A stretch of DNA of 64,000 nucleotides, from the NCBI RefSeq assembly GCF_006345805.1, contig NC_043010.1, forward strand, positions 558,001-622,000, given 5' to 3'. This document shows, piece after piece, positions 5,161-59,790 of this stretch. The notes below the pieces were generated by a model, which worked only from the letters and a program-made list of their open reading frames with translations, searched no databases and was not told the origin of the DNA. Made by a program: the position numbers and the translations under genes. Source of the stretch: Octopus sinensis. Lineage: Eukaryota. Numbering within the stretch: position 1 is the first letter of the stretch; each line of letters begins with the position of its first letter.

Positions 5161-5182
5161 CATTAAAACATGTAATATTTAA

Positions 5183-5404
5183 CCCTTTTGATACCAACCT
5201 AGCTGAAACGGCCTCTGGCTCTGTAGTACAAATGTCATGGTTTCAAAAGTTCTGAATTAAAATCTTCCACCAAACCTTAGCCACAATTTATGTTCCTAAC
5301 ACTAGCTTAATGATAGCTAAGTTATTTTACTAAATTCTTTGTTATATTTAAAATTAATTGAAAGAAACACAGAGCGTCTCAAAATAAATATGGTAACGAA
5401 AGGG
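5183..5404. mobile_element. piggyBac-type MITE
   Basis: TTAA-cccttttgatacc ... ggtaacgaaaggg-TCAA: imperfect 13-bp TIRs and a TTAA-like TSD. Confidence 0.7.
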
Positions 5405-6468
5405 TCAAAGCAGTGTATCGGTACATTACAAAACATAACAAAAGTACCTCAGCTGTAAGAGAAAATATTGCTGAGTATAAAAAATGAATATTATCACGGA
5501 GCCAGGCTATAAAGTGGCAAGCTGGCAAAATTGTAACTGCACCAGGCAAAATGCTTAGTGGCATTTCATTTGTCTTTATGTTCTGAGTTCAAATTCTGCT
5601 GGGGTCGACTTTGCCTTTCATCCTCTTGAGGTTAATAAAATAACTATTTGACTTACTCTCATCCTCAAATTGCTAACTTTGTGCCAAAATTCAGCACCAT
5701 TATTATGGAGTCAGACTAGGTATAAGAAATGGTGTGGATTAAAAAGCATAAGGGACAAAATTAGTTCTTTGGAGGCTCAACTTCACATATAAGGTTCCAT
5801 GTTGATTTTTTGGAGACATTTTTAAGGGAAGAAAGTGCATCTTATATGCCATCAAATATGGTAACCTACTTCTTTATAATAGTCTACTGGGAAATCTTTA
5901 GACTTTGATGTTATCAGAAACCATTGATTCCAGAGATGAATCCTGTGATTCTTAGCCATTGTTTTAGCTGCTACTACTTTGATCAGCCTTGTCTGTTATT
6001 AGCCATACAAAGGGGTTTTCTAGCCAATGTTTAAGGATGGCATTTTGTAAACCTGATTTTAACGTATGTTTTCAGTTTATTAATACTTCCTCCAGTTGAT
6101 TCTTCATCTTCCAAGTTATCTCAAAGCTTCTCTTTTAATGTTTGCTGGCCACGTCCAACATTGAAAATGTTTTTGTTTGTTGTTATATTGCTTTACACTT
6201 TTTCTGAGTTCAGTCATTGAACAGCGGCCATGTTGGTGCAATATCTTTGAGGGGTTTCTTTTCAGTCCATCACATTGATCCCACCACTTAATTCATTTTG
6301 GTGCTTATTTTACTGATCTTTATCAAATTGCTAAGTTCAGTTTTAATTTCTACGTCAACGGATGTAAATATATACACCAGTTTAAACCACTAGACATAAA
6401 TGGAGACACAGGCATATATACAAATGCTCACACACATGCATGCACACTGCACACACACACACACACAC

Positions 6469-6516
<48 letters not shown>

Positions 6517-7089
6517 GAGGTGTAAATATTAGTGTATGCAGTAGAAAAAATACAAGTACTCAATACTGTAAGTGAAGTTAATAATTTCTTTGAAGGTGGA
6601 ACTTCACAAATTGTTTCTCTGCTTTTCTCGGTGATCTTCAGACGATTATGAAAAGTAGGACCTTCATGACTTCATGATTCTTCACCATTTATTTGCCTTT
6701 ATTTTTTACTAAATATTTTTGTAGTCCTTTGGTGGATATTTTATAACAATTTTCTCGCTGCCTTTTTGGCACATATAAACTGTTTACATTAGTTTTTTTA
6801 AACCAACTGTGGGTATTTAATAACAATTTTCTTTCTGCAGTGCTTGGGTGGAGTACTCACAATTTCAAGGTCATGATTTCGATATCTGTACCAGGCAGTG
6901 TGTTGTGTTCTTGAACAAAGCATTTCATTTTGCATAACCCCCCCTACTCAACTGTAAATAAGTAACTCCACAGTTGATTAGCTTCCTGTTGATCTCAGCT
7001 ATGGCAACTGGGTAATCAGCCCTATAAATCCATGACGTGAGACAGTAACATCAGGGAGTTGATGATGACGATGGTGATGATAAAGGGGT

Positions 7090-7710
7090 TCTTATATTAT
7101 TGTATCTATAATAAATATAAATTGTCTTCATTTTTTCTTGTTTTTGATTGGTTCATTGACAATTTTCCTTGTTTTTTCCTATTCCGTTTTCTTGATCCAT
7201 TTAGCTTCCAGTTGAGACAATCATCATTGTAATGTAATGCGCAAACAGCTGGGATACTGATACTTAACATCTTATCATTAGCATTCTGTTTTGATTTTAA
7301 GTATTAATTGAGTACATCATTAATATTCCTTTGTAGTATTTTCTTTCATTTAAGTGTATTTGTACGCTGTCTAGTTAATTAATTCTTAAGTATTTGTAAG
7401 TCTGTATTTGGTCTAATTATCTTTGTTTTATATCTTTTTATCAATCATGATATTGCTGTTTTTTTATTTATAATTATTGTTATTGATGTTTTTTTCTTTC
7501 ATTAAGATGATTTGACCAACTAACAAAATTTCATACTAGTTTCTCTACTGAATCTGTGTACCGTATCTAAGAAGGCTTCCTGTTGTTTTATAGTCTTTCC
7601 TGCATACAACTTGAGGTCGTCAGTATACTGTTAATGGTTGATAGTCATGCCATAGCATGGAAGTCTATTTCCAGTCTGCTTTAGAATATTACTTAAAGGT
7701 CTTAGCTCTA
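7090..7710 (-). mobile_element. Degenerate R4/Dong-like reverse transcriptase fragment
   Basis: Minus translation LRPLSNILKQTG...NH*QYTDDLKLYAG...FLDTVHRFSRETSMKF, later ILKSKQNANDKML...LNWK; many stops. Confidence 0.7.
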
Positions 7711-20218: not shown

Positions 20219-20805
20219 CACACGCTGACATAGAACCAACGTTGAACCCATTATTCGCAATATTACCGAATATGAAACTTGACTATGGTATGTCTCTAGC
20301 ACTTATTCAGCATTACCTGACACCTTTGGGTCTCAATGACACCATTATCTCTTATATATATATACATACATATATCATCAGTCTATGTGTCTGCTTTCTA
20401 TGCAGGCATGGGTAGGAGATTTTGATAGGAAACTGGTGAGCTGCAAGGTTACTTCAATCTCCAGTGCCATCTTTGAGAGGGCTTCTATGGCTGGATGGCA
20501 TTCCTAATGCCAACCTCTTAACAGGGTGTACTAAATGCTACCTTGTGTGCATATATATATGTTATATAAACATATAAAGATTATTATTAATAAAAGTAGT
20601 AATAAAAGTGGCTAGCAAGCATAAAAGAACCAAAAAGGTAAATTATTAATTTATAATCAGGGTACAAGATAGTACACAGCATTGCTAGAAATAGGAGTAA
20701 GTGGCTCAAGAGTCATTTATATACACACTGGTGAGTTCAGGGAAATGAGTATATAAAAAGCCATCTTACCAATAGTGAGTAAAAATCACAAATGAGTTGC
20801 AAACG

Positions 20806-20863
20806 TACTCATAGCACGTGCTTTTGGACCCTGTGATAAACACTTAGTCTTCATCAGTGAGTA
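20806..20863 (-). ncRNA. Type I hammerhead motif, inverted twin of 20904-20961
   Basis: Exact reverse complement inside the inverted repeat 20669-21109. Confidence 0.7.
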
Positions 20864-20903
20864 TTACTGCCGAGGACTAAAATATTTTCACCCTTGGCTG
20901 TAA

Positions 20904-20961
20904 TACTCACTGATGAAGACTAAGTGTTTATCACAGGGTCCAAAAGCACGTGCTATGAGTA
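20904..20961 (+). ncRNA. Type I hammerhead motif, probably inactivated (GAAA reads AAAA)
   Basis: UACUCA-CUGAUGA-AGAC...GUCC-AAAA-GCACGUGC-UA-UGAGUA. Perfect 6-bp helix I and a 10-nt palindrome AGCACGUGCU as helix III. Confidence 0.7.
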
Positions 20962-21235
20962 TGTTTGCAACTCATTTGTGATTTTTACTCACTGTTGGTA
21001 AGATGGCTTTTTATATACTCATTTCCTCAAACTCACCAGTGTGTATATAAGTGAACTACTGTGGTTTTTGAGCCACTTGACTCTTATCTCTAGCCGTGCT
21101 GTATACTATATATTATATATAAATGTATTACAGCAGAAAATGAACAAAAAAAACATTTGGCACCATTCAAGAACATTTAATTTATAATTTATAATCTATA
21201 CAAAGTGCAGAACAGTTATGATTATTTACATAAAG

Positions 21236-42415: not shown

Positions 42416-42448
<33 letters not shown>

Positions 42449-42531
42449 GGTCCCGGGTTGAGTCGGGGTTAACCACAGTAAATAAGGTACTCAATACATA
42501 GCAGAGTAAATTAATTTATTATATAGAAGGA

Positions 42532-42580
42532 GCTTCTACAGGACTAGAACTGTTTCATTCAAAAGAAATCATCAGGAAGC
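42532..42580 (-). ncRNA. Type I hammerhead ribozyme motif, exact reverse-complement twin of 42581-42629
   Basis: Left arm of the perfect 118-bp palindrome at 42522-42639. Confidence 0.8.
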
Positions 42581-42629
42581 GCTTCCTGATGATTTCTTTT
42601 GAATGAAACAGTTCTAGTCCTGTAGAAGC
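42581..42629 (+). ncRNA. Type I hammerhead ribozyme motif
   Basis: GCUUC-CUGAUGA-U UUC UUUU GAA U-GAAA-CAG UUCUAGUC CUG-UA-GAAGC. Helix I GCUUC/GAAGC, helix III ACAG/CUGU, GUA cleavage triplet at 42622-42624; helix II is short and weak. Confidence 0.8.
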
Positions 42630-43637
42630 TCCTTCTATAAAAAAAAAATATATATATATACATATATACATATATGTATGTGTGTGTGTGTGTGTGTGTA
42701 TGAAGATATGTATGTGTGTGGATGTATGTATCTAGCTGTCTGTTTGTCTGTCTATCTTCTCCTTTCTATGTTTAGTTGAAGGACAGTAATTTTGAAGGAA
42801 GGGGTCAACGATTTGTTAACGGTTTCTGCCAGCTCCCCGCCTTCAGTGTAAAGTGGATAAAACACTCACTTAACATTTGACGTTGCACACAAGACGAAAT
42901 GTTTATTTACATTTTATATGTTTCTTGAATGGCTTCCCAGCAATGGGACAACAGTTTCAAAGAAGTCTGGAGAAAAAACACACACACAAAGCAAAAAAGA
43001 AAAAATAACGAAAAGAAAACCCAGTTTATTCACGGTAGTGTCACATAAAAGAACATTGGTATTGATTTCTTACATTGGTACAAAGTATTAGGATCGGTAA
43101 ATAGCTGTTAGTCGATTATGTCTCTCTCAGTTCTTGATTGCTACTTATTTTATCGATTTCGGGAGAAAGCTGAAAGGCAAAGTCGAATGTAGGCGTGATT
43201 TGAACTCACAACGTAAATGGGCGTGATTACATACTGCACTTTGTCCGCCCCACTTTATTGATCCGAAACGTTTGTAATAATAATAATATACTAACAATAA
43301 TAACTCAAATGTCATCATCAAATCTTCACTGTATATCACAGACAGACACGAGCCAATGAGGACAGCCTCTATATGCTCGCGTATATGTATGCATGCATGC
43401 GTGCATGCGTGTATGTATGTATGTTGTATGTATGTATGTATGTATGTATGTATGCCAGCCTGTATGTATGCATGTATGTATGTATGTATGTATGCCTGAA
43501 TGTATATATCTATGACCGTATGTTTGTATGTATGCATGTACATCTCATTCACACACACAGACGAACACACACAAATACACAAACTCATATATAAGCTAAC
43601 GCTTAAGTAACAATTTCAATATATATATATACATATC

Positions 43638-45000: not shown

Positions 45001-45306
45001 TAAAATGTGCGTGAGTATGTGTGTGTGTGTGTGTTGTGTGTGTGCGCGCGTGTGTGTGTGTGTGTATGTGCGCGTGTGTGTGTGTATTTAGTGCTGACGG
45101 AGAGAAGAAAGTGTAGACAATACCATAGTGAAAATTAATAATACTTTTATTGTAGTTGAGTCGTTGTTTCGTTGTTCTGAGTTTCACCTGTGGGAGTAGA
45201 GGGTCTTCAGGTAAAGTACGACTCTAATATTAATGCCGCAATTTGACTGAACATCCTTTGTACTCCCACAGGCGAAACACAAATAACTAGATGCTAACAC
45301 AACTAA

Positions 45307-51047: not shown

Positions 51048-51074
51048 AACGTTTCGAGCATGGCTCTTCGTCAG
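51048..51074 (-). ncRNA. Hammerhead core with poor helix I
   Basis: Minus strand reads CUGACGA-A-GAGC CAU GCUC-GAAA-CG-UU; the flanks are not complementary. Confidence 0.5.
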
Positions 51075-51534: not shown

Positions 51535-52340
51535 TTGATTAACGATATATTCTAAAGTACATGTATACTGAGTTCCTACACCAGGTCATTTGTATCGATA
51601 TGTCTATTTCTTCTGTTTTTTTTTTGCTTGCAAATGGTTATACATATATACATATATTACTATTGGGGCTGTAGTAGAAAACACTGACCAGTGCCACACA
51701 GGGGGAGTGAACTCAGAACCACGTGATTGAAAGCAAGCTTCTTAACCACACAGCCTCGCCTACGCCTGTACTGTCTATTATATTGAAAGTACTCCACGTA
51801 GTGTGTCCGTAAGTACATGACAGTAACTATTTTTGATGTGTTATAAATATTTGTACGTCCAGAGGTTTCAGTCATGTGTGCATCTGAATTGCTTTGAAGC
51901 ATTTCTAAAATCATTATTCCATAGACTGCTTCTGTTTTTGCTCCCATATTCTGGTTATCTTCATTTTCTAGACCTTAATATTTGAAAAGTACTCAGTTTC
52001 TTTCAGTAGTATATAATCGTATTTTAATATAATCATACTTAGTTTAAGAGCAAATCCTTGATAACAATATCTGACCTGTTAGTCTATCTACATATATTCT
52101 CATATCTCAGCGTATTATTACTTTCTCATATATTCCAACATCATCGTCCTCCTCCTCCACCCATCATCATCATCATCATCATCATCCAGATTTTGCTTGT
52201 AAACGAACCTTTTTGCAGGATATATACTGGAATAGCTGATATTTAGCATATATAGTTTTATATTTAAGAGATGAGGAATTATGTACATTATTTACACTAT
52301 TTACATTTGACGGATATTTGTCCTCATCTTGTTTGTTGTT

Positions 52341-52386
52341 AACACAACGTTTCGGCTGATATACCCTCCAGCCTTCATCGGGTGTC
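52341..52386 (-). ncRNA. Minimal type I hammerhead motif (CCGAUGA variant)
   Basis: Minus strand reads GACAC-CCGAUGA-A-GGCUG GAGGGUAUAU CAGCC-GAAA-CG-UU-GUGUU; helix III is the palindrome AACGUU. Confidence 0.7.
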
Positions 52387-52467
52387 TTGAGAAAATTTCG
52401 AACCTGGCTTCTCATTCCTAAGGTATTTTACGATGTTATTATTTATTATTATTATTATTATTATTAC

Positions 52468-52526
<59 letters not shown>

Positions 52527-52641
52527 TCACTGCTTGGAATCGACCTGAATAATAATAAAAATAATATAATAATAATATAATAATAATAATAATATTGTAA
52601 AATACCTTAGGAATGAGAACCAAAGTTGGAAATTTTCCCAT

Positions 52642-52687
52642 GACACCTGATGAAGGCTGGATGGTATATCAGCTGAAACATTGTGTT
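52642..52687 (+). ncRNA. Minimal type I hammerhead motif, CpG-decayed twin of 52341-52386
   Basis: GACAC-CUGAUGA-AGGCUG...CAGCU-GAAA-CA-UU-GUGUU. Confidence 0.6.
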
Positions 52688-53444
52688 AACAACAAACAAG
52701 ATGAGGACAAATAACCGTCAAATGTAAATAATGCTGATTTTTAGATCTTGTTTTTCCCTATAAACTCTACAACCTCTTCAAGTTGGTGTAGTTCGTGTGC
52801 TACTATGGTGGTAACGATGATGGTCATGATGTTCTTGATGATAATGATGATGACGATGACGAAGATGACGACGACGACGACGACGAATGATGATGATGAT
52901 AATAATGATGATGATGTTGATGATGATGTTGATGATGTTGATGATGATGATGTTGATGATGATGTTGATGTTGATGATATGCTGCTGAAGATGGTGATGA
53001 TAATGTTGGGTGATACTGATAAAGATGGCGTTAGTGATAATGGTGATAACATGGACGAGGATCATAATGATGTGATGGTGGTGGTCTCGGTGGTGGTGAT
53101 GGTTATAGTGATGGTGATGGCGATGGTGGTGGAGGTGATGGTGGTGGAGATGGTGGTGATGATGGTGATGATGATAGAGAAGGGGAGGAGGAGGACTGTA
53201 GTGGTGACGATGGTGTCGGTAGTGTTTGTTTTTGGCGATAATGTTCCTCGTATTTTATGAAGACGATGAGAAAGATGAGATGCATGATGATGATGAAAGC
53301 CGATGAAGATAAAGAATGACAGAAGCTCTGGAAGAGGCTGAGGACAATGTAAAAGATGGCAGAAAATTATGATGATGATGATTGTGGTGGTGGTGGTGGG
53401 TGTGGTGGTGACGGTGGCGGTGGCGGTGGTTGCGGTGGTGGTGG

Positions 53445-56211: not shown

Positions 56212-58555
56212 CCGCTTCTATTTTATATTATATAATTCGACCATTATATCTAGTTGTAGTTTATATCTTCTTGTCTTTATTTTATGCATAGAAACACGTG
56301 GAAATTATGCACACACGCACACACTCACACACACGTATATATACATACACATCCATACGTACACATATCTACATACATATGCATACATGCACACTCACGC
56401 ATATATTCATATATGTGTATGTATATTTATATATATATATCTGTATATATATAAATGTATACATATATAATATATATTTTTGTGTGTGTGTATATATATA
56501 TATATAAAGACAGCATATCTATATACATATATATGTACGTATGTACATATATGTATGTATATATATGCATATATATATAGATATATATATATATATATAA
56601 ATATGTACACACATATATGACTGTTTATCTCACCATCTATGTATATGTTTACTATAGTTATATATATATTGTTTCTGTTCATGGGTTGTTTTTTTTTGCT
56701 ACCACCCGCCTCCCCCGCCGCATATCCTATCTCCGCTGTCATAGGATCATGAAGTGGTCTCTCTATCAACGTAAATATGTAAATATTGGCAAAAGAGAAT
56801 TGTGTTTTGGCACAAAAAAGGAAGGAAAAAAATCTATATCACGTTATCTCCCTTTCCCCCTCACTCTCTTACGTAAATATGTCTTTTATTATAATATGTA
56901 TATATTTTATTTTATTGCTTTTTGTTGTTATCTGAGATAGATGCGAGGAGTTTGTAGTGATGTGGGCGGTTCTGTGCAGTAGCGGCGATGGTGGTGGTGG
57001 TGGTGGTGGTTGTAGCGGTGTTGGAGGTAGAGGTAGAGGTGGTTGTGGTGGTGGTAGTGGTAGTCGTTGGTGAAGCAAGGCTGTGACCGGAGCAGTTGCA
57101 CTTGTTCACAGTCTTAGTCAGAACAGTAAATATACTCATGCACGTGTGCATGTATGTATATGCGTGTGTGTGTGTCTGTGTCTGTGTTTGTGTATATATC
57201 TGTGTTTGTGTAAGTGTGTATATGTGTACGGATATATGTGTGTGTATATATATATATGCGTTTGTGTGTACACCCCACCACACATAATATACATGGGTTG
57301 CCTGTATCCATGTAGAAATGTACATCTTCATATATTTGCATTTGTGTGTGTGTATGTGTGTTTTGTCAGTATATTTGTGTATACATGCATTTATAAAACG
57401 CTTTAAGGAATATTGGACTTAGCCGTATTCACCATTATTCACCATTATTGACCAATATTGACTAATATTGAACTGCAGCTTTATGAAATTATCGCAAAAT
57501 CATATCGTTTTCTCTAAGCAGGATTACAGAGGCTCAATGACAACACACTTGCATCTGATATCACGCTAGTTTTCTCGCAGCCATGCCTTCCGTTCTGTAT
57601 TTTAGGCGCTTGCAACAATAAGGATCTATAGTTGTAGACATGATTCATATTTAGCATTAATCTTGAAGACATATGACCAAAGGCATTCCAGCGATGACCA
57701 TCACCAATAATGTATATCTGATCTGGTATATATACGCAAGTGCAACAGTATTAAATCAAAATAGCTATATATCTATCATACTTAAAGTATTTACACCATT
57801 GATAGGCCTCCTACTGCATTATTTATCTTGGAATACCATCTCTTATGTACTTAGTGAGTTAAAAGTACAATAATATCAAGGAAAGATGAAAATTCGTCAC
57901 GTAAGCATCTAGTGAGGATGCCAAATGCATTGAAAAGGTTCTTCTTGGACCTTTTCAATGGCATGTAGACAGGGTTTTATATATTTTATTTCGTGCCGTA
58001 TAGTAGCTCATTCCCTCCTTCAAATCGACGTTGCCTCAACAGGTGCTCTGTGTAATACGCGTTAGGGGTGGAAGTAATCGCAGAAAAAGTGAGATGAGAT
58101 GTTTTGTTCAAGTACACAACGCGCCACTCGGTCTAGGAATTGACCGATCCTGAGCACAACACCCTAACCATTAGACTATGTTTCCTCACACACACACACA
58201 CATACACACACATGGTTAGAGTGTAGTACTCACGATCGTGGGATCGTAGTTTCAATTCCTAGAGCGAGTGGTGTATTAGTGTTCTTGAGCAATACACTTC
58301 ATCTCACGTTGCTCTGCGACCACTTCGACACTTGATGCGTGGTACACATTACACCTGTTTCAGACAACGTCGATTTGATGGAAGGAGTGAGCTAATGTGC
58401 GGCACGAACATTTGATCACTGTAAACAAATCATTTTTGCAGGTCATTCGGCGAGCTGAACGGTCGTACGTGCTCATCAACTTAAGAGTCCATCACACACA
58501 CACACACACAAGAAATAACAGAAACGTAAAATAGAAAATTTGAGAATCTTTATTG

Positions 58556-59679: not shown

Positions 59680-59790
59680 GATATTTGTTCTCATCTTGTT
59701 TGTTGTTAACAACAAACAAGATGAGAACAAGTATCCATCAAATGTAAATAATGTAAATAATGTACATAATTCCTCACCTGTTAAATATCG
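59680..59790. repeat. Collapsed palindromic remnant of the 52-kb fold-back family
   Basis: Perfect 46-bp palindrome at 59685-59730 (ttgttctcatcttgtttgttgtt|aacaacaaacaagatgagaacaa). The right side continues as the reverse complement of 52261-52340. Confidence 0.7.

What the first reader, a model, noticed from the sequence alone, without database searches (positions are those of the whole stretch)
52251..52733. Third fold-back hammerhead family, with (ATT)n/(TAA)n built into the arms
Seen: inverted arms around a 13-nt centre, each with a minimal hammerhead (helix I GACAC/GUGUU, 5-bp helix II, AACGUU palindrome in the left copy). The arms have diverged, so this is unlikely to be an assembly artefact. 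Three sequence-unrelated families in 64 kb share the same divergent two-ribozyme geometry. Inference: a general fold-back insertion mechanism produces these units at high density.
Basis: partly seen in the sequence, partly recalled or inferred. Interest (0 to 1): 0.7.

Follow-up and report, generated by a model that had tools for sequence, protein, structure and literature searches.

The report
Head-to-head Penelope retrotransposon stump
The mirror-image DNA is real, but it is one decayed, front-truncated insertion of a very abundant Penelope-type jumping gene in a head-to-head layout already described in print, with both hammerhead motifs mutated and the two arms likely made by two separate primings of the element's RNA rather than by one fold-back.

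Summary
Observation largely confirmed; interpretation partly. 52251-52733 is one insertion of a Penelope/Poseidon-type PLE (8,163 exact core matches in the genome): two 5'-truncated pLTR arms head to head, a 35-nt tail on the left arm only, a degenerate ~14-bp TSD. Both hammerheads are damaged (left U4C; right loses the helix III pair). The (AAT)n tract and the 13-nt centre are element sequence; the arms also encode the ORF's first ~55 codons. But this geometry, and opposite-strand hammerhead pairs 100-700 bp apart, are published for PLEs. A single fold-back fits poorly: 36 of 40 scoreable pairs are tail + no-tail, none tail + tail, and the tail-less arm is the longer in 15 of 36, which favours two primings at the two known RT start sites. 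The pLTR starts with a tRNA-like A/B-box head where 5' ends pile up, and the sense strand has no shared T4 run, hinting at Pol III transcription (untested). The scan noted twin priming (other genomes) and the tRNA head (this genome) before.

The parts
52236..52249 (+). Left copy of degenerate target-site duplication
   Evidence: 10 of 11 nt match to 52734-52744, extendable to ~14 nt with one gap; score 8, reached by 3.9% of mismatched flank pairs
52251..52543 (-). Left arm: 5'-truncated pLTR with tail (22 nt of head, AAT tract, core, tail)
   Evidence: 7 substitutions and a 9-nt duplication against the family majority over 174 nt
52251..52285 (-). 35-nt PLE 'tail', present on this arm only
   Evidence: two fixed 3' ends in the family
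52251..52415 (-). First ~55 codons of the PLE ORF (open in the left arm; stop in the right arm, whose ATG is at 52613)
   Evidence: tblastn of intact 847-aa relative P0003 hits 52394-52311, 55% identity over 29 aa, E = 0.002; alignment
52341..52386 (-). Minimal type I hammerhead motif, left copy, core U4C (52380), palindromic AACGUU intact
52438..52521 (-). (AAT)n tract of left arm, ~28 units; element-borne
   Evidence: an AAT/AAC tract follows the head in all 29 head-anchored loci and in ORF-linked copies
52529..52541 (-). 13-nt centre: extra 5' portion of the left arm, 3' part of the tRNA-like head
52542..52543 (.). 2-nt overlap shared by both arms at the head-to-head junction
   Evidence: Read from sequence; this exact junction occurs at 2 places in the genome
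52542..52733 (+). Right arm: 5'-truncated pLTR without tail
   Evidence: 12 substitutions against the family majority over 143 nt, 3 CpG-type; 2 variants shared with left arm
52549..52590 (+). (AAT)n tract of right arm, ~14 imperfect units
52642..52687 (+). Minimal type I hammerhead motif, right copy; core box intact, G16.2A (52680) and C11.1U (52674)
52734..52746 (+). Right copy of degenerate target-site duplication

Best explanation
This is a single decayed insertion of a Penelope/Poseidon-type retrotransposon in which two 5'-truncated pLTR copies sit head to head inside one target-site duplication, and the two arms were likely made by two separate target-primed reverse transcriptions rather than by one strand folding back. 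Shown: family membership, link to an RT + GIY-YIG ORF, TSD, one-sided tail, divergent orientation, element origin of the AAT tract and centre. Inferred: the endonuclease makes a staggered cut; each 3'-OH primes an antisense cDNA, one from the tail-end start site and one from the site ~35 nt upstream, usually on RNA from one source element; both stop early (often at the RNA's 5' end in the tRNA-like head), their 3' ends anneal by a few bases or at a palindrome, and fill-in makes the palindrome. The hammerheads are passengers of the pLTR/ORF start, are predicted inactive here, and play no part in making the inversion.
For: Family: 8,163 exact 19-mer matches, control 0. Head-AAT-core-tail follows an RT/GIY-YIG body directly in L004 and in most RT-anchored loci; near full-length L173 has inverted tail-less pLTR + partial pLTR + ORF + tailed pLTR; homologues carry RVT_1 and GIY-YIG. 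Geometry: 47 of 89 loci divergent, 0 convergent, 2 tandem. One event: TSD score >=8 in 26 of 37 units against 3.9%. Coupled ends: 36 tail+no-tail, 4 none+none, 0 tail+tail among 40 scoreable of 47 pairs (P = 9e-8 against 0.5); second family 17 of 18 (my count). Against plain fold-back: tail-less arm longer in 15 of 36, tailed longer 15, equal 6; 13 of those 15 have a TSD; L131 has a 17-nt tail-only arm, no duplicated part, 3-nt overlap and a 14-bp TSD; L097 is tail-less alone within an 8-bp TSD. Common source: 28 variants shared between arms in 44 pairs, shuffle mean 13.4, max 26 of 2,000. In vitro, an Anolis Poseidon cleaves and extends both strands, starts RT at two sites bounding the tail, is predicted dimeric, and does not need its hammerhead (PMC11167929).
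Against: The window's own copy (tailed arm longer by 13 nt, 2-nt overlap) fits snap-back equally well. Later one-sided deletions of palindrome centres could randomise which arm is longer; I could not exclude this. Only about one in ten arm variants is shared (28 of 227-275), so 'one RNA' is weakly supported. Only 4 of 35 solo copies had a TSD by my crude scan (3 of 20 tail-less, one of them a TA repeat). Sample is the first 55 Mb of one contig, anchored on exact core matches. Junction overlaps (20 of 34 close junctions) rest on BLAST ends with no null. Copies are ~5% diverged. PMC3846280 interprets such junctions as self-priming on an antisense template.
Confidence: 0.65

Rival explanations
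1. Snap-back: one cDNA primed at the tail end folds back on itself by a short overlap, copies itself, and is resolved ~35 nt short of its start; later central deletions blur the arm lengths.
For: Fits the window copy base for base; palindromic junction hot spots in both families; shared arm variants; never two tails.
Against: Tail-less arm longer in 15 of 36 with TSDs in 13; L131 with no duplicated part, L097 tail-less solo in a TSD; tail-less end matches a second RT start site known in vitro (PMC11167929).
Confidence: 0.22
2. The two-hammerhead palindrome is itself a mobile or functional unit (MITE-like or retrozyme-like element that releases an RNA by cleavage on both strands).
For: High density; same layout in unrelated families; TSD around whole units; the exact junction recurs once elsewhere.
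Against: Junctions are nearly all different and this one occurs at only 2 places; arm lengths run from 17 nt to kilobases with ORF inside; 8 of 32 partner arms keep a full core; both motifs here are damaged; motifs on opposite strands cannot dimerise and a read-through RNA would pair each with its mirror; no read starts or ends at the cleavage site.
Confidence: 0.05
3. Two independent insertions, post-insertion DNA inversion, or assembly artefact.
For: This locus was not bridged by independent runs; arms differ by 9%.
Against: 0 convergent of 47 pairs, TSD around whole unit, fixed tail rule, shared variants; opposite-strand joints in raw reads of three runs.
Confidence: 0.03

Closest known systems
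EN+ Penelope-like element insertion unit with inverted 5'-truncated pLTR, one-sided 30-40 bp tail and TSD (Adineta vaga Pen2a/Pen2, PMC3846280, passages and Discussion read; overview in PMC8557442, passages read)
   Same: Head-to-head inverted pLTR, tail on one end, ~9-14 bp TSD, overlap or palindrome at the junction, pLTR covering the first codons of the ORF.
   Different: Far higher copy number; over half of sampled copies are inverted units; pLTR contains a tRNA-like head and an (AAT)n tract.
Minimal hammerheads (min-HHR) of metazoan PLE pLTRs (PMC4209133, parts 1-2 of 4 read)
   Same: Type I, 5-bp helix I, extra nucleotide between A9 and G10.1, palindromic 15.2-16.2, dual motifs 100-700 bp apart on opposite strands.
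   Different: Helix II 5 bp with a 10-nt loop; both copies at this locus are mutated; cleavage untested.
Poseidon PAc of Anolis carolinensis (PMC11167929, parts 1-2 of 4 read)
   Same: RT-GIY-YIG ORF whose start overlaps the hammerhead; two 3' ends bounding the tail.
   Different: That paper does not, in the parts read, model the inverted arm; PAc is intact and active in vitro, copies here are decayed.
TRIMp3 (Helenus, Ajax, Cassandra; PMC10886601, passages read) and tRNA-SINEs
   Same: tRNA-like A/B boxes inside a terminal repeat; short non-coding copies dominate.
   Different: Those are non-autonomous LTR elements; here the boxes lie in the pLTR of an ORF-bearing PLE.
Non-LTR retrozymes (10.64898/2026.07.22.740005, part 1 of 5 read)
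   Same: PLE-related type I hammerhead in short non-coding units.
   Different: Retrozymes are head-to-tail tandems; here 2 of 89 loci are tandem and 47 are head to head.
L1 twin priming (recalled, no call)
   Same: Two primings from a staggered cut, inverted 5' part, microhomology junction, TSD.
   Different: L1 arms copy non-overlapping parts of the RNA; here both arms copy the same 3' region from two fixed start sites.

Membership tests
EN+ Penelope-like element (Penelope/Poseidon type) | Single ORF with RT and C-terminal GIY-YIG endonuclease linked to the repeat | tested here: met
   Body directly upstream of head-core-tail; RVT_1 hits; L077 551-aa ORF aligns end to end with homologues bearing RVT_1 and GIY-YIG. 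L077 itself gave no Pfam hit.
EN+ Penelope-like element (Penelope/Poseidon type) | pLTR: partial tandem upstream copy overlapping the ORF start | tested here: met
   L173/L188 (likely one source) and L186 carry a partial pLTR before the ORF; arm translates to the N-terminus of relative P0003.
EN+ Penelope-like element (Penelope/Poseidon type) | Inverted 5'-truncated copy and 30-40 bp tail at one end | tested here: met
   47 of 89 loci; 36 of 40 tail + no-tail.
EN+ Penelope-like element (Penelope/Poseidon type) | No Zn-finger-like linker between RT and EN (separates it from Neptune/Nematis) | tested here: met
   By inspection of alignment; criterion from PMC8557442.
EN+ Penelope-like element (Penelope/Poseidon type) | RT phylogeny within the Penelope/Poseidon clade | not tested
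   No named reference PLE proteins were at hand; no tree built.
Minimal type I hammerhead (min-HHR) | Conserved core CUGANGA / GAAA / UH with helices I and II, family level | tested here: met
   Family majority has all core positions, extra A, G10.1-C11.1 and palindromic AACGUU.
Minimal type I hammerhead (min-HHR) | Intact core in the two copies at this locus | tested here: not met
   Left U4C; right G16.2A and C11.1U. No Rfam hammerhead match among the 150 best of 309 rows shown.
Minimal type I hammerhead (min-HHR) | Self-cleavage (as dimer or protein-assisted) | not testable with these tools
   No read starts or ends piled at the site in three RNA runs; fragmented libraries may not show it.
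Non-LTR retrozyme | Head-to-tail tandem of hammerhead-bearing monomers | tested here: not met
   2 of 89 loci tandem.
MITE-like / self-propagating palindromic unit | Many copies with the same junction and length | tested here: not met
   Exact junction at 2 places in 2.7 Gb; junctions heterogeneous.
Pol III-driven (tRNA-headed) retroelement | A and B boxes at tRNA spacing | tested here: met
   Both boxes in the head majority; 1 of 100,000 shuffles (box motifs recalled); ARAGORN calls it only at 70% threshold, not by default; no Rfam tRNA hit.
Pol III-driven (tRNA-headed) retroelement | 5' ends at the head and no T4 terminator on the sense strand | tested here: inconclusive
   55 of 78 arms start within -24..+11 of the A box; no T4 site shared by 25% of copies over 2,415 positions, 20 T4 against 589 A4 runs. 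But codon-aware controls on single copies give P 0.07-0.27 and four other RT fragments also have none; a palindrome lies at the same place.
Pol III-driven (tRNA-headed) retroelement | Transcription by RNA polymerase III | not testable with these tools
   RNA reads come equally from both directions with no defined start.

The most novel reading that the evidence does not exclude
This Penelope family is an autonomous, protein-coding retroelement whose pLTR carries a captured tRNA-type Pol III promoter and whose whole 2.6-kb RNA avoids Pol III terminators; a dimeric RT copies that one RNA twice, from both target nicks and two fixed start sites, so that over half of all insertions are palindromes and each seeds up to two (AAT)n microsatellites.
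Probability: 0.2. Interest if true: 0.7.

Novelty: new member of a known kind. Interest (0 to 1): 0.27.

Why it matters
As a locus it is ordinary: one of thousands of dead PLE stumps. As a sample it bears on an open question, how PLEs make their inverted pLTRs and one-sided tails (called undefined in PMC8557442): the tail rule and arm-length pattern give a testable two-priming model. If the tRNA-like head is a working Pol III promoter for the full element, it would be an unusual case of a protein-coding retrotransposon on Pol III. The family also spreads (AAT)n seeds and hairpin-forming DNA through this genome.

Tried and rejected
Rfam scan of the window: the 150 best of 309 rows shown were almost all microsatellite-driven miRNA matches, none a hammerhead. 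Strict hammerhead descriptor missed both copies. Monomer folding of either motif is no better than shuffles (z -0.59, -0.31). ARAGORN default found no tRNA in 30 loci; Rfam no tRNA match in 3 loci. PDB sequence search with the L077 ORF: nothing below E 0.14. Pfam on family-2 ORF fragments: no RT or GIY-YIG hit. Shared-junction (self-propagating unit) idea rejected. Idea that U4C is the family's normal core rejected: 227 of 8,163. Idea that the head is a free-standing SINE rejected: all 29 head-anchored loci continue into AAT/AAC and 28 have core sequence within 1.5 kb. TSD scan of solo copies mostly blank, 4 of 35. The look-up of sequencing runs: no RNA holder listed. Laying DNA contigs and reads on the window locus did not bridge junction or flanks because repeats were skipped. 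Literature: 'Penelope + twin priming + inverted' gave 2 papers, neither about PLE mechanism by listing; one search gave only PMC11167929 as relevant; searches listed no Pol III-driven or tRNA-headed PLE (listings only; subscription journals and Repbase are not covered). PMC13282606 and PMC6962438 (passages) and PMC10886601 did not describe this family in the passages seen. No supplements were opened; those of PMC4209133 and PMC11167929 may bear on novelty. Earlier-findings look-ups near the place and by sequence were blank.

Full report
Observation. The window holds inverted arms at 52295-52443 and 52585-52733 (149 nt, 91% complementary) and an inner stem around 13 nt at 52529-52541. Aligning the right arm with the reverse complement of the left shows one element copied twice head to head. 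Each arm has a hammerhead-shaped motif with helix I GACAC/GUGUU, an extra A after the first core box and a 5-bp helix II. Neither is intact: the left core is CCGAUGA (U4C), the right has lost the C15.2-G16.2 pair and has U at 11.1, both CpG-type changes. A strict descriptor missed both. The U4C form is 227 of 8,163 exact core matches, so it is a minority variant.

What the element is. The arm belongs to a dispersed family in the 2.72-Gb genome G000: 8,163 exact matches to a 19-mer, 0 for the reversed control. In locus L004 the same sequence follows a decayed RT and GIY-YIG region directly (RVT_1 E 2.5e-13), and most of 20 RT-anchored loci show body, head, AAT tract, core and tail in that order or with an inverted arm. 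A 551-aa ORF piece (L077) has 1,697 homologues; the best carry RVT_1 and some GIY-YIG, and they align end to end with no cysteine-rich linker, which fits the Penelope/Poseidon type as defined in PMC8557442 (passages read); no tree was built. L173 is near full length: tail-less inverted pLTR, partial pLTR, ORF, tailed pLTR. The arms themselves encode the ORF's first ~55 codons: an intact 847-aa relative hits window 52394-52311 at 55% over 29 aa, so the hammerhead lies inside coding sequence, as in Anolis Poseidon (PMC11167929). The (AAT)n tract is element-borne and variable in length: it follows the head in all 29 head-anchored loci. The 13-nt centre is simply the longer 5' reach of the left arm into the head, joined through a 2-nt overlap.

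Among the first 100 of the 8,163 matches (55 Mb of contig C1), 6 neighbours lie within 500 bp, all divergent, against 0.09 expected (P = 7e-10); within 2 kb 8 of 8 are divergent. I fetched 89 distinct loci from those 100 (8 matches were partners inside the same loci, 3 were not fetched; L049 dropped as duplicate of L048). By BLAST, 47 of 89 have a divergent core partner, 54 have some divergent module, 0 are convergent and 2 tandem. The unit at 42.4-42.6 kb belongs to a second family (1,191 exact matches) with 21 divergent pairs and 1 tandem within 500 bp among the first 90 matches against 0.02 expected. So the geometry is real and general. It is also published: an inverted 5'-truncated copy next to the pLTR with a 30-40 bp tail at one end (PMC8557442; PMC3846280, passages and Discussion), and dual minimal hammerheads about 100-700 bp apart on opposite strands, with the extra nucleotide before helix II and the palindromic 15.2-16.2 positions (PMC4209133, parts 1-2 of 4).

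One event per unit. A direct repeat scoring 8 or more flanks 26 of 37 units (36 sampled plus the window's) against 3.9% of mismatched flank pairs; the window's is 52236-52249 / 52734-52746, degenerate. The arms share 28 variants in 44 pairs, above all 2,000 shuffles (mean 13.4), though that is only about a tenth of the 227-275 differences; the window's arms share two. The exact junction occurs at only one other place and junctions differ widely, so units are made anew and do not spread as units.

Mechanism. The family has two fixed 3' ends about 35 nt apart. Of 47 pairs, 40 could be scored: 36 tail + no-tail, 4 none + none, 0 tail + tail. The second family gives 17 of 18, one unclear (my count). 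In a single fold-back the second arm is copied from the first, so the longer arm must hold the tail. Instead the tail-less arm is longer in 15 of 36, the tailed in 15, equal in 6, and 13 of the 15 have a TSD. L131 has a 17-nt tail-only arm joined by a 3-nt overlap to a long tail-less arm inside a 14-bp TSD, with nothing duplicated; L097 is a tail-less copy alone in an 8-bp TSD. In vitro, Anolis Poseidon cleaves and extends both strands, starts RT at two sites that bound the tail, is predicted to be a dimer, and does not need its hammerhead for insertion (PMC11167929, parts 1-2 of 4). I infer two primings, one from each nick and each start site, joined head to head (0.65). Against: the window copy alone fits snap-back as well; later one-sided deletions could blur arm lengths; only 4 of 35 solo copies showed a TSD; overlap counts (20 of 34 close junctions) have no null. 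PMC3846280 proposes self-priming on an antisense template. My searches listed no paper that models PLE inversions by twin priming, but they miss subscription journals and I opened no supplements. The scan's earlier notes reach the same model in other genomes; I had written it down before and do not count them as support.

Hammerhead role. Only 8 of 32 partner arms keep all core positions; core positions differ from the majority at 4.8% against 7.1% downstream and 8.0% in loop II, close to neutral decay. Opposite-strand motifs cannot form the tandem dimer that minimal hammerheads are thought to need (PMC4209133). In three raw RNA runs (about 6% of each read; coded organism B, perhaps not the same species) 5,179-7,394 reads fit a family copy at 85% or more, about equally in both directions, with no pile of starts or ends, and with opposite-strand joints near the head start. 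This fits passive read-through of many genomic copies and shows that such joints exist outside the assembly.

The tRNA-like head. The pLTR begins with A and B boxes at tRNA spacing (motifs recalled; 1 of 100,000 shuffles), called a tRNA by ARAGORN only at a 70% threshold. Of 78 arms reaching the head, 55 start within -24 to +11 of the A box, 5 in the next 168 nt upstream and 6 run past the reference; this may mark the RNA's 5' end, or the palindrome that lies there. Codon-aware controls on three single copies are weaker (P 0.07-0.27) and four other RT fragments also have none, while family-2 fragments have 7 in 1.3 kb. Pol III transcription of the whole element stays an untested possibility. 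Closest in print that I saw are tRNA-bearing LTRs of non-autonomous TRIMs (PMC10886601, passages); searches listed no Pol III-driven PLE.

Verdict. A real, ordinary member of a known kind: the inverted-pLTR insertion of a Penelope-type element, here with two dead hammerheads. The added value is population evidence on how the inversion forms and a tRNA-like promoter candidate, both noted before by this scan on other DNA. Interest 0.27.

Noticed in passing
window 42447-42646: Second PLE-like family: near-perfect head-to-head pair centred on a GAAGC/GCTTC palindrome next to the hammerhead, ~75-nt tail on the left arm only; 1,191 exact matches; RT and cysteine-rich-linker/GIY-YIG-like fragments lie between the arms in L229 and partly L226 (Neptune/Nematis-like; tblastn E ~1e-4, no Pfam hit).
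   Followed up: partly
window 20640-21109: Third inverted unit, low-copy older family (65 candidates); hammerhead-like first box and helix II but no GAAA box here; left arm longer at the outer end; PLE-type RT fragments near two related loci (L249, L256).
   Followed up: partly
window 59680-59790: Another short, rearranged piece of the same family as the finding (tail region plus a small palindrome at the GTTAAC site), without the hammerhead core.
   Followed up: no
window 51051-51074 (-) and 45181-45210 (-): Further solo CUGANGA...GAAAC motifs from other repeats.
   Followed up: no
window 57990-58408: Old inverted pair (70%) of a tRNA-SINE-like repeat around a CA tract.
   Followed up: no
L006:1000-1960: Both arms have tails and continue into ~170 nt of the same non-ORF sequence, followed by a third, tail-less partial pLTR: looks like flank captured between pLTRs.
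   Followed up: no
L028:3041-3109 (-): Canonical-type Hammerhead_1 Rfam match (33.2 bits, just under the gathering score 34) from an unrelated repeat.
   Followed up: no
L019 / L031 (G000:C12:49117125): Only other copy with the identical junction; different flanks and a (TAG)n-converted tract, so probably a recurrence at the same 2-nt overlap.
   Followed up: partly
tail-less arm ends across loci: The tail-less end is often followed by one or more extra copies of a 9-nt unit (up to five in L106) before the TSD, suggesting stuttering at the second RT start site.
   Followed up: no
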